From the NCBI GenBank assembly GCA_951406725.2, contig OX597831.1, forward strand, positions 124,001 to 188,000: a stretch of DNA of 64,000 nt. Reading direction: 5' to 3'. Every line of letters starts with the position of its first letter. Position 1 is the first letter of the stretch. Origin of the DNA: Octopus vulgaris (Eukaryota). Shown piece by piece: positions 45,001 to 48,000 of the stretch. The position numbers are program-made.

Positions 45001-48000
45001 AAGGGCATCCAGCCGTAGAAACACTGCCAGATCAGACTGGGCCTGATGCAGCCTCTGCCTTCACAGACCCCAGTTGAACCGTCCAACCCATGCTAGCATG
45101 GAAAGCGGACGCTAAGTGATGATGATGTATGTGTGTGGAATGTAGATAATAAAAATCAATGTCGCAGTTTAAACTTGAGAAAAGCTTTGCATATTTATAA
45201 TGTGCAAGTTATATATATATGTGTGCATTTTCGTGTGTGTATGCGGCTAGGGTTCCTTCTTAAGTGCTTCATTTGTGTATGTAAATTTCTAAGAAGAAAA
45301 CGACATCGTTGTCACAAAAGCCATATTAATGATGATATTTCGTTAATTTACAGTTCAGAGCACCTGCTGTCAACCTCACTAAAACTAACAAACGAATCTT
45401 GATGAGTCTGAGACTCAAAAACGATTAAATGCAGCTTAAGTACAGAGGAACGAGATGCTGTTAAGCATTTTGTCTGACAAGCAAATGATTCTTCTTGTAA
45501 ATAATACATGGTTGACCAGAATCCATGACTCACTTGTTCATTAAATTCTTTTCTATATTAACCCTTTTGTTACTGTATTTATTTTGAGATGCTCTCAGAA
45601 CATAAACTGTGATTAAGTTTTGGTGTAAGATTTTAATTCGAAATTTATGAAAACAGGACATTTGTACTCAGAGCCAGAGCTGGTTTCAGCCAGGTTGGTA
45701 ACAAAAGGGTTAATACACTTATTAAGAAATAAAATAGTCAATTTAAATAATAAAAGAAGCATGCTAGAAAAGATGACTAAAATTGAGTCATGAATTCTGG
45801 TCCACCCTGTAGGATTTTATGAACCCTTCGAAGTTACAGTAATCACATAGAAGGGAAAACATAGAAACATTGAGAAAATATGCTTCCTCGTCTTGGATAT
45901 CTCAAACATTGATTTTCTTTAAAGGTATGAGGAAACGAATTTAGGGTGTAACACACATTTATGTCGTTATGCCATTCTTTCAATGCCTCAATGAACTCCG
46001 ACCCCTAAAAACATTTAATCGATGACAGTGTTCATGTTGTAAAATTTGCAACATTGAATTAGCGTATCATTTCACTATTCTTTTTATCTTAATGTTTCTT
46101 TTCCTATTTCAGAATATCACCTTATGTTGACCCACAAGAAACTTCTTCATTCAGATGTGCCTTTCATATTTTTACGTCGTTTCATCAACTAAAGCAAGAT
46201 GACATAATTTATCAGCAGCATTCATCAATACATCAAAATTTATATGAATACAATCTAAGAATACAATATTTTTCTTGTCTTCACTGTTTGGAATGTAGAG
46301 GAAGTGATTGCCTTACAGTTTAATTAAGGTTGGATAACTTTACAAACGAGTTGACAATTTCCACCTGCTGATTTAGATATTAAGTAAGATCACAGAAGAA
46401 AGAAACACAGCTTCGAATTCTTTTCTAGAAAAAGTGGCAGAACTGAAAACAAAGATGTTTATAGAGATGAAGGAAACATTATTATTGTGATATGTATAAT
46501 AAATTATTCTCTCACAATGAATAAATTAACTGAAGCTAAAAACGATGATATAAGAGTGAAACAATATTTCTGTGATATCTGTGGTAAATCATTCTCTCAA
46601 AGGAGAGACTTAACTCATCACAAATATACACATACAGGAGAAAAGCCATATCATTGTGATATCTGTGGTAAAGTCATTCTCTCAAAGGTGTAACTTGACT
46701 CATCACAAATATACACATACAGGAGAAAAGCCATATCATTGTGATATCTGTGATAAATCATTCTCTCAAAAGAGTGACTTGACTAAACACAATCATACAC
46801 ATACAGGAGAAAAGCCATATCATTGTGATATCTGTGGTAAATCATTCTCTCAAAGGTGTAACTTGACTCATCACAAATATACCCATACAGGAGAAAAGCC
46901 ATATCATTGTGAAATCTGTGGTAAATCATTCTCTCAGAGGAATACCTTGACTGAACACAGACATACACATACAGGAGACAAGCCATATCATTGCGATATC
47001 TGTGATAAATCATTCTATCGAAGGAGTAACTTGACTCAACACAAACTTACACATACAGAACAAAAGCCATATAATTGTGATATCTGTAGTAAATCATTCT
47101 CGCGTAGGAGTATCTTGACCGAACACAAACATACACATACAGGAGAAAAGCCATATCATTGTGATATCTGTGGTAAATCATTCTCTCGAAGGGGTATCTT
47201 GACTCAACACAAATATACACATACAGGAGAAAAGCCATATCATTGTGATATCTGTGGTAAATCATTCTCTCAAAGCAGTGACGTGGCTAAACACAAACAT
47301 ACACATACAACAGAAAAGCCATATCATTGTGATATTTGTGATAGATCCTTCTCTCAAATGTGTAACTTGATCCAGCACCAACATACACATACGGGAGAAA
47401 AGCCATATCATTGTGATATCTGTGGTAAATCATTCTCTCATAGGAGTAACTTGACTAAGCACGAGCGTACACATACAGGGGAAAAGCCTTATGATTGTGA
47501 TATCTGTTGTAAATCATTCTCTGATATGAGTAACTTGACTAAGCATAAATATACACATACAGGAGAGAAGCCATATCAATGTGATATCTGTGATAAATCA
47601 TCTTCTCAAAATTATCATTTAACTAATTTCAGATACATTCATACAAGGGAAAAACCTTATCGTTGTGATATCTGTGATAAATCATTCTCTGCAAATTGTG
47701 ATTTAACTAGTAACAAACATATTCATGCTGAAGAGAAGCTTTTATCATTGTGACACCTGCGAATGTACATATTCATACCACACAAAATCTACATCATGGT
47801 CAAATCTGTTGTAAATCATTCTCTCATAGATCTAACTTAACTGTAAATGAATGCATTCCTACAGGAGAGAAGCTATGTCAGAGTAACATCTGTGCTAAAC
47901 CATTCTCTTGAAAAAAGCTACATCCATACACCTGGGTATTCACAACAATTGTAACTGTACCAATGTCAGGATTTATTAAAACATTACAACAATTAAGTCT

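What the first reader, a model, noticed from the sequence alone, without database searches (positions are those of the whole stretch)
46113..46570. Identity between inverted ZNF-B and ZNF-C collapses exactly at the start codon
Seen: the ~405-nt leader (46113-46516 vs 56523-56119) differs at about 8 positions by eye (~98%), whereas the first 18 codons differ at about 16 of 54 nt (~70%), mostly non-synonymously. This is the reverse of the usual coding/non-coding pattern. Inference: either gene conversion homogenising a constant leader between inverted copies, or exchange/rapid diversification of the coding cassette - a constant-leader/variable-array system. Read-through across the convergent pair could also form ~450 bp of dsRNA, an A-to-I editing substrate.
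Basis: partly seen in the sequence, partly recalled or inferred. Interest (0 to 1): 0.7.

Follow-up and report, generated by a model that had tools for sequence, protein, structure and literature searches.

The report
Converted leader between inverted zinc-finger paralogues
Two neighbouring, oppositely oriented zinc-finger gene copies share a nearly identical 420-base non-coding stretch that ends at the start codon, most likely because one copy's stretch was pasted over the other's (gene conversion), which is an ordinary event in clustered gene families.

Summary
ZNF-B leader 46113-46516 and ZNF-C leader 56523-56119 match at 397 of 405 columns (98.0%). The first 18 codons match at 38 of 54 nt (70.4%).

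A three-rate change-point fit puts a 423-column tract (46093-46514) at 1.65% difference. It lies between a 5' flank at 13.5% and a 3' side at 20.9%. The 3' break falls within 46505-46520, and the ATG is at 46517.

Constraint does not explain the tract. The third paralogue, A, is only about 73% identical in the leader. B-C synonymous divergence in the fingers is 0.17-0.25, against 0.017-0.02 in the leader. A model in which all parts share one history predicts 32-58 leader substitutions; 7 are seen.

The best reading is one or more interlocus gene-conversion events in the non-coding leader of two old inverted paralogues. The arrays show ordinary zinc-finger turnover: finger duplication, a register shift, and omega above 1 only at DNA-contact residues.

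A "constant-leader/variable-array system" is not supported. A's leader is divergent, B carries a frameshift, and C is truncated and holds a SINE-like insert. The dsRNA idea could not be tested. No other paralogues or reads were available. Interest is low to moderate.

The parts
45997..46092 (+). B: upstream (intron-like) flank homologous to C 56631-56544. This is the old level of divergence on the 5' side.
   Evidence: 13.5% differences over 89 collapsed columns. Homology with C begins at 45997/56631.
46093..46514 (+). B arm of the near-identical tract, the inferred gene-conversion tract. It covers the polypyrimidine/AG acceptor-like site and the whole non-coding leader up to -3 of the ATG.
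   Evidence: 423 columns at 1.65% difference. ML breakpoints lie after 46092 and after 46514, with 2-lnL intervals 46044-46109 and 46505-46520. The eight differences are listed.
56121..56543 (-). C arm of the same tract (reverse complement of the B arm, with one extra T opposite B 46268).
   Evidence: Column-by-column coordinates. Inverted-repeat arms.
46095..46112 (+). Splice-acceptor-like TTTCTTTTC(C/T)TATTTCAG, conserved in A (about 36111-36128), B and C (56541-56524). A yUnAy branch-point-like motif lies about 25-30 nt upstream.
   Evidence: Three-way alignment. That it acts as a splice acceptor is inferred from sequence only; there are no RNA data.
46517..47753 (+). ZNF-B coding region: ATG, 18-codon N-terminus and 14 C2H2 fingers of 84 nt each. 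One extra base at 46673 in finger 2 shifts the frame (a 58-aa ORF, then an open frame to the stop at 47753). Fingers 13-14 are degenerate.
   Evidence: ORFs, three-frame reading, finger units, Pfam C2H2.
55630..56118 (-). ZNF-C ORF: ATG at 56118, 18-codon N-terminus and 5 fingers. A 2-nt deletion at about 55637 in finger 6 leads to the stop at 55630.
55209..55536 (.). Copy of an interspersed SINE-like repeat inside the remains of the C array. A further finger remnant lies beyond it at 55139-55205.
   Evidence: Matches to 35383-35703, 44153-44458, 44866-45137, 50006-50240 and 51976-52202 at 72-92%. Sequence.
35987..37661 (+). ZNF-A, the outgroup paralogue: homologous upstream flank and acceptor-like site, a 633-nt leader (36129-36761), and an intact 299-aa ORF with 10 fingers (36762-37661).
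   Evidence: Leader identity to B and C is 72.8% and 73.3%.

Best explanation
A, B and C are members of a local cluster of poly-C2H2 zinc-finger genes. No effector domain is seen in the ORFs scanned. B (+ strand) and C (- strand) are old paralogues lying tail to tail. Their starts are about 9.6 kb apart.

Fairly recently, a non-allelic (interlocus) gene-conversion event copied about 420 bp from one copy onto the other. The event may have been repeated, or a third similar copy may have been the donor. The tract runs from about 20 nt upstream of a conserved splice-acceptor-like site to 3 nt before the ATG. About 1.7-2% difference has built up since.

Everything outside the tract keeps the older divergence. 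Downstream of the ATG, ordinary zinc-finger array dynamics add to it: an unconstrained, fast-evolving 18-codon N-terminus, recent finger duplications in B, a shifted finger register between B and C, and diversification of DNA-contact residues.

Shown here: the tract, its two boundaries, the lack of deep constraint on the leader, the old synonymous divergence of the fingers, and the array turnover.

Inferred: that the mechanism is gene conversion, and that the tract stops at the ATG because heteroduplex extension fails where the sequences become 30% different. It is also possible that copies converted into the array were selected against.
For: (1) The tract is bounded on both sides. Differences are 13.5% over 89 columns on the 5' side, 1.65% over 423 columns in the tract, and 20.9% over 573 columns on the 3' side. 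lnL improves by 50 units over a single rate, and 0 of 20000 permutations match.

(2) Constraint does not explain it. A differs from B and C at about 27% of leader sites, more than in the upstream flank (about 19%). Scaling by A predicts 58 B-C leader substitutions from the flank, 45 from colinear synonymous sites, and 32 from best-match synonymous sites. Seven are observed (Poisson P between 1e-7 and 3e-17).

(3) Site patterns with A as the third sequence. Leader: BC|A 98, AC|B 4, AB|C 2. N-terminus: 9, 9, 5 (Fisher P = 1.3e-8). Upstream flank: 15, 7, 3 (P = 5e-5 against the leader).

(4) Synonymous divergence between B and C is 0.25 over colinear fingers (166 codons). It is 0.17-0.19 over the best-matching fingers C01/B05, C02/B07 and C03/B08. 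Leader divergence is 0.017-0.02.

(5) The leader looks non-coding and unstructured. It has stops in all three frames, and A-B substitutions fall evenly on codon positions (12/46, 10/46, 10/44). The fold z-score is +1.64. There is no Rfam match.

(6) Within the window, the leader matches only A, B and C, so here it is not an interspersed repeat.

(7) Short conversion tracts among poly-zinc-finger paralogues are already on record, from GENECONV analysis (PMC2604467, passages read).
Against: Only one pair of copies could be examined.

Both ends of the tract sit at functional landmarks: the acceptor-like site, and the ATG. The 3' support interval is 16 of 1093 homologous nt, about 1.5%. A single random conversion does not predict this, and it leaves room for selection on the leader or on the boundary.

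The 5' flank that sets the 'old' divergence is short: 89-116 columns.

Finger orthology is uncertain, and the synonymous counts are small (7.5 differences over 50 sites for the best-matching fingers).

By dS the fingers of B and C are still closer to each other (0.25) than to A (0.68 and 1.10). The incongruence is therefore one of relative depth, not of topology, except in the star-like N-terminus.

The upstream flank and the N-terminus do not differ significantly in site pattern (P = 0.25).

No reads were available to exclude an assembly or polishing artefact. Donor and direction cannot be told.
Confidence: 0.68

Rival explanations
1. The leader is a functional 5'UTR under strong purifying selection in the B/C subfamily, for example translational control through its upstream ORFs. 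The coding region drifts or diversifies. No recombination is needed.
For: Both ends of the tract coincide with the limits of the non-coding part of the exon. A 22-codon uORF starting at leader position 12 keeps its start, stop and length in A, B and C.
Against: A's leader is only 72.8-73.3% identical to B and C, and it tolerates a 221-bp MITE-like insertion. Scaling by A predicts 32-58 substitutions, and 7 are observed. There is no RNA structure signal. B and C both carry disabling lesions, so strong selection on their UTRs is unlikely.
Confidence: 0.08
2. B and C arose by a recent inverted duplication, about 2% ago. The coding region of one copy was then overwritten from a third paralogue outside the window. 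This is a cassette exchange with a breakpoint at the ATG.
For: The N-terminus is star-like among A, B and C (9/9/5 site patterns). The first four fingers of B are B-specific. They resemble B08 at 92-95%, B02 and B04 match at 80/81, and C01 matches B05 best at 77/84.
Against: The 5' flank is also old, at 13.5%. The high-identity segment is therefore an island, not the remainder of a young duplicate. B01-B04 resemble other B fingers, so they look like duplications within the array, not imports. No donor can be shown.
Confidence: 0.12
3. Assembly or polishing artefact: reads from one leader were used to correct the other, or a partial collapse made them look alike.
For: None from the sequence itself.
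Against: Eight differences are spread evenly over the tract: 46142, 46178, 46268, 46319, 46343, 46351, 46457 and 46515. Six of them can be polarised with A, giving 4 derived in B and 2 derived in C. This looks like real divergence after the event.
Confidence: 0.07
4. The inverted leaders are kept as a functional pair. A read-through transcript folds them into about 400 bp of dsRNA, which could be an ADAR or small-RNA substrate.
For: The arms are 98% complementary, the longest perfect stretch is 105 nt, and the two arms lie about 9.6 kb apart on one strand.
Against: The two mRNAs themselves carry the same sense of the leader, so they cannot pair with each other. Pairing needs a transcript of more than 10.4 kb running past AATAAA/ATTAAA hexamers at 47975, 48179 and 48192. 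Both genes are damaged. No RNA data were available.
Confidence: 0.04

Closest known systems
Interlocus gene conversion among clustered poly-zinc-finger paralogues (GENECONV tracts; Emerson & Thomas 2009, PMC2604467, passages read)
   Same: A short tract of elevated identity between paralogues of a lineage-specific poly-ZF expansion. The paralogues differ in finger number. Positive selection is confined to DNA-contact positions.
   Different: Here the tract lies wholly in non-coding leader, ends within a few bases of the ATG, and joins inverted copies. The cited work analysed coding alignments. The genes here show no KRAB, SCAN or BTB domain in the ORFs scanned.
Venom-gene pattern of conserved UTRs/introns with accelerated or switched exons. 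Sources: the ASSET paper PMC2711939, passage read; and the title of Ogawa et al. [quoted passage not shown]
   Same: Non-coding sequence is more alike than coding sequence between paralogues.
   Different: Overall omega between B and C is 0.66-0.86, and it exceeds 1 only at contact residues. The intron-like flank is not conserved. Synonymous sites are old. The pattern here therefore comes from a young leader, not from an accelerated CDS alone.
Arm-to-arm gene conversion in inverted repeats and palindromes, e.g. sex-chromosome palindromes (recalled, not looked up here)
   Same: Inverted copies a few kb apart are kept alike by intrachromosomal conversion.
   Different: Only a 420-bp island is homogenised, not the whole arm. 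The arms here are diverged, partly decayed genes.
Constant 5' exons spliced to alternative zinc-finger 3' exons, as in Drosophila lola and mod(mdg4) (recalled, not looked up here)
   Same: Each zinc-finger unit starts with an acceptor-like site. Units lie on both strands of one locus.
   Different: Each unit has its own leader, with stops in all three frames before its own ATG, so no constant coding exon can be fused. No shared 5' exon was identified.

Membership tests
Interlocus (ectopic) gene-conversion tract | A segment of significantly higher identity than both flanks within a longer paralogous alignment (Sawyer/GENECONV-type criterion) | tested here: met
   1.65% difference against 13.5% (5') and 20.9% (3'). 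0 of 20000 permutations match.
Interlocus (ectopic) gene-conversion tract | The high identity is not explained by constraint: an outgroup paralogue evolves at an ordinary rate in the same segment | tested here: met
   A differs from B and C at about 27% of leader sites. 32-58 substitutions are expected and 7 are observed.
Interlocus (ectopic) gene-conversion tract | Different genealogy inside and outside the tract | tested here: inconclusive
   Relative depth differs strongly (site patterns 98:6 against 9:14 and 15:10). By dS, however, the fingers still group B with C against A. Only three sequences were available.
Interlocus (ectopic) gene-conversion tract | Both copies verified as separate loci in reads; donor identified | not testable with these tools
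   No reads and no other copy of this genome were available.
Poly-C2H2 zinc-finger gene of a tandem cluster | Tandem C2H2 fingers joined by TGEKP-type linkers | tested here: met
   Pfam zf-C2H2 and zf-H2C2_2 in A, B and C. 84-nt finger units.
Poly-C2H2 zinc-finger gene of a tandem cluster | Diversification concentrated at helix positions -1, 1, 2, 3 and 6; finger gain and loss between paralogues | tested here: met
   Omega is 1.5-5.6 at contact codons and 0.36-0.65 on the scaffold. Finger counts are 10, 14 and 5+. B02 and B04 match at 80/81, and C01 matches B05 best.
Poly-C2H2 zinc-finger gene of a tandem cluster | N-terminal effector domain (KRAB, SCAN, BTB, ZAD) | tested here: not met
   None found in the ORFs scanned. 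The N-terminus is 18 residues long. Upstream exons, if any, were not identified.
Programmed constant-leader/variable-cassette system | The same leader is shared by all variable units | tested here: not met
   A's leader is 72.8-73.3% identical to B and C.
Programmed constant-leader/variable-cassette system | Intact, expressible variable units | tested here: not met
   B has a +1 frameshift at 46673. C has a 2-nt deletion and a SINE-like insert. B's frameshift could be an assembly error; this was not testable.
Accelerated-evolution gene family with conserved UTRs (venom type) | dN above dS over the variable coding region, with introns and UTRs conserved | tested here: not met
   Overall omega is 0.66-0.86. 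The intron-like flank differs at 13.5%.
Long inverted-repeat dsRNA (ADAR or small-RNA substrate) | Near-perfect inverted arms of several hundred nt | tested here: met
   397/405 complementary.
Long inverted-repeat dsRNA (ADAR or small-RNA substrate) | Both arms present in one transcript; editing or small-RNA footprints | not testable with these tools
   No RNA data were available. Poly(A)-signal-like hexamers lie between the arms.

The most novel reading that the evidence does not exclude
The leader is a conversion island that is renewed again and again between B-type copies, and selection sets its edges. Homogenisation would be tolerated, or favoured, in a shared regulatory 5'UTR that carries a uORF conserved in position. 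It would be rejected as soon as it enters the coding sequence, where divergence of the N-terminus and fingers is favoured. The break would then sit at the ATG for a reason, not by chance. Other pairs in the family should show breaks at the same place. A side effect would be a pair of near-perfect inverted arms able to form dsRNA in read-through transcripts.
Probability: 0.12. Interest if true: 0.5.

Novelty: new member of a known kind. Interest (0 to 1): 0.24.

Why it matters
For annotation, the two leaders should not be read as a conserved regulatory element or as a repeat family. Trees or dating of this zinc-finger cluster must treat 46093-46514 and 56121-56543 separately from the coding sequence. 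The locus is a clean small example of how gene conversion and array turnover together produce 'non-coding more alike than coding' between paralogues. It would become more interesting only if other pairs in the same genome show conversion tracts that stop at the ATG. That would point to selection shaping tract boundaries in an expanding transcription-factor family.

Tried and rejected
**Searches for relatives and taxon**
- Protein search with A. 7311 of the 8000 scored candidates had E <= 1e-20. In the 120 listed, the best identity was 64% and the hits were generic vertebrate, insect and mollusc zinc-finger proteins. There was no close paralogue and no taxon.
- Search with A residues 1-40. No candidate was found.
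- Search with a LINE-like ORF, 2240-2650, against longer proteins. It gave 1 unnamed hit at 37% identity with RT and endonuclease Pfam domains. The organism stays undetermined. I took the window for an AT-rich invertebrate-like genome, not human.

**Tests of the leader**
- Rfam on the whole window: 0 matches.
- RNA fold of the B leader: less stable than 95 of 100 shuffles. A structured RNA is rejected.
- Coding potential: stops in all three frames. A 69-codon open frame in B is broken by the 1-nt indel in C. There is no third-position excess. Coding is rejected.
- Leader as an interspersed repeat: it matches only A, B and C in the window. Rejected for the window. Genome-wide copy number was not checked.

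**Other checks**
- Pfam on six other ORFs: no family.
- B and C as parts of a larger palindrome: homology is limited to 45997-47089 / 56631-55548 plus finger remnants. Rejected.

**Literature**
- Term searches inside PMC12513265 and PMC10547256 found no 'gene conversion' or 'UTR' passages. These were term finds only, not full reads. Their supplements were not opened.
- PMC46847 is not held.
- I make no claim that leader-limited conversion in zinc-finger clusters is absent from print. Only the searches were made.

**Not done**
The putative upstream exon was not found.

Full report
**What is there**

The window has no N and a GC content of 31-45%. It is packed with microsatellites and interspersed repeats. 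It holds three poly-C2H2 zinc-finger units spaced about 10 kb apart.
- A is on the + strand. It has an intact 299-aa ORF at 36762-37661 with 10 fingers.
- B is on the + strand, with its ATG at 46517. It has 14 finger units of 84 nt. One extra base at 46673 in finger 2 leaves a 58-aa ORF, followed by an otherwise open frame to the stop at 47753.
- C is on the - strand, with its ATG at 56118. It has 5 fingers. A 2-nt deletion in finger 6 then gives a stop at 55630. After that come a SINE-like insert at about 55209-55536 and one more finger remnant.

Pfam finds only C2H2 families and no effector domain.

All three copies share the same layout. It starts with about 115-135 nt of upstream homology. 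That ends in a conserved polypyrimidine/AG acceptor-like site, TTTCTTTTC(C/T)TATTTCAG. A non-coding leader follows: 404 nt in B, 405 nt in C, and 633 nt in A. Then comes a conserved TCTCA(C/T)AATG start and an 18-codon N-terminus before the first finger.

**The observation**

- Leader: 397 of 405 columns identical (7 substitutions and 1 indel).
- First 18 codons: 38 of 54 nt identical.
- Colinear CDS: 452 of 573 identical.

There is one addition. The homology continues 116 nt upstream of the leader, and there it is also much less alike: 97 matches, 11 mismatches and an 8-column gap.

A three-rate change-point fit over 1085 columns puts the breaks after 46092 and after 46514. The rates are 13.5%, 1.65% and 20.9%. 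The 2-lnL intervals are 46044-46109 and 46505-46520. The drop in identity therefore sits within about -12 to +4 nt of the A of the ATG. None of 20000 permutations of the differences reproduced the 105-nt identical run or a 405-column window with 7 or fewer differences.

**Why the leader is young rather than constrained**

Paralogue A serves as the outgroup. A differs from B and C at about 27% of aligned leader sites. That is more than in the upstream flank, where it differs at about 19%.

Site patterns:

| Region | BC\|A | AC\|B | AB\|C |
|---|---|---|---|
| Leader | 98 | 4 | 2 |
| N-terminus | 9 | 9 | 5 |
| Upstream flank | 15 | 7 | 3 |

The leader differs from the N-terminus at Fisher P = 1.3e-8 and from the flank at P = 5e-5. 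The flank and the N-terminus do not differ from each other (P = 0.25).

If the leader had the same history as the flank or the synonymous sites, 32-58 B-C substitutions would be expected. Seven are seen.

Synonymous divergence between B and C is 0.25 over colinear fingers. It is 0.17-0.19 over the best-matching fingers. The coding divergence is therefore old, and is not merely fast amino-acid change.

The leader shows no sign of being coding or structured. It has stops in all three frames and no third-position excess, and the fold z-score is +1.64. There is no Rfam match.

**What happens after the ATG**

The arrays behave like ordinary poly-ZF genes.
- Omega is 1.5-5.6 at helix positions -1, 1, 2, 3 and 6, and 0.36-0.65 on the scaffold.
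- B has recently duplicated fingers. B02 and B04 match at 80/81, and B01, B02, B04 and B08 are 92-95% alike.
- The finger registers are shifted. The first finger of C matches B05 best (77/84), C02 matches B07 (75/84), and C03 matches B08 (72/84). A colinear comparison therefore compares non-orthologous fingers.
- The 18-codon N-terminus is equally far apart in all three pairs: 70%, 63% and 70% identity.

**Mechanism**

The most economical account is an interlocus gene-conversion tract of about 420 bp in the leader of two old inverted paralogues, followed by about 2% of new divergence. I put this at about 0.68.

That the tract ends at the ATG is most simply explained by homology. Heteroduplex extension would fail where 16 of the next 54 nt differ. 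This part is inferred, not shown.

The coincidence of both ends with functional landmarks is the main thing the simple account does not predict. It keeps alive a reading in which selection sets the boundaries of repeated conversion (probability about 0.12).

The rivals are:
- constraint on the UTR (0.08);
- a recent duplication with the CDS replaced from a third copy (0.12), which the old 5' flank argues against;
- an assembly or polishing artefact (0.07), which could not be tested;
- a functional dsRNA pair (0.04), which could not be tested.

**Comparison with what is known**

Short conversion tracts among poly-ZF paralogues have been reported with GENECONV, and differences in finger number between recent paralogues are the rule (PMC2604467, passages read).

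The 'non-coding more alike than coding' pattern is also familiar from venom gene families (PMC2711939, passage read). That type fails here, because overall omega is below 1 and the intron-like flank is not conserved.

A lola/mod(mdg4)-like constant-exon system (recalled, not looked up) is excluded, because every unit has its own leader full of stop codons.

Two papers on cephalopod and metazoan ZNF expansions hold no passage on gene conversion or UTRs, by term find only. Whether this window comes from such an animal is unknown. Three protein searches gave no close relative.

**Verdict**

The constant-leader/variable-array system is not supported. This is a new example of a known process. What stayed unchecked: other paralogues in the genome, reads, RNA data, and sister-species loci.

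Noticed in passing
window 36425-36653 (inside the leader of ZNF-A): A 221-bp insert is flanked by TTAA on both sides and has perfect 12-nt terminal inverted repeats, TTAACCCTTTAG / CTAAAGGGTTAA. This is the layout of a piggyBac-type MITE; the family name is recalled and was not tested. B and C lack the insert.
   Followed up: partly
window 55209-55536; other copies at 35383-35703, 44153-44458, 44866-45137, 50006-50240, 51976-52202: An interspersed SINE-like repeat family occurs at 72-92% identity. 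One copy sits inside the decayed tail of the ZNF-C finger array.
   Followed up: partly
window 55638-55660 and 55180-55205 (- strand): Finger 6 of C and the finger remnant beyond the SINE-like insert both read TGTAA(C/T)A(C/T)GTGG where intact fingers read TGTGATATCTGTGG. They share the same 2-nt loss. An already broken finger therefore seems to have been duplicated.
   Followed up: no
window 46655-46739 vs 46824-46907: Fingers 2 and 4 of B match at 80 of 81 compared nt. The frameshifting extra base at 46673 is in finger 2 only. The finger duplication is therefore very recent, and the frameshift is younger still, unless it is an assembly error.
   Followed up: partly
window 46124-46192 (B), 56512-56444 (C), 36140-36208 (A): An upstream ORF of 22 codons starts at leader position 12. 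It keeps its start, stop and length in all three copies. By eye, A-B substitutions in it show no third-position bias, so the peptide itself does not look conserved.
   Followed up: partly
window 37657-37900 (A) and 47768-47912 (B): Finger-like sequence continues out of frame beyond the stop codons of A and B. Both proteins end alike, in GEKTLSV* and EEKLLSL*. The stop seems to come from an old shared frameshift in a linker.
   Followed up: no
window 5365-6950, 13229-14808, 15706-16900, 17431-17943, 30308-30736, 32489-33257: There are long tracts of tetranucleotide-type microsatellites. They read as runs of CMYV or HTYI in translation.
   Followed up: no
window 10605-11068 and a dozen or more partial copies (e.g. 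28903-29367, 29448-29860, 48719-49111, 15304-15908); also 26750-26970 with copies at 30975-31222, 31486-31730, 40483-40670, 43571-43808, 49282-49527, 57771-58013: Two more interspersed repeat families occur at about 72-93% identity. A LINE-like ORF at 2240-2650 has one weak relative with RT and endonuclease domains.
   Followed up: no
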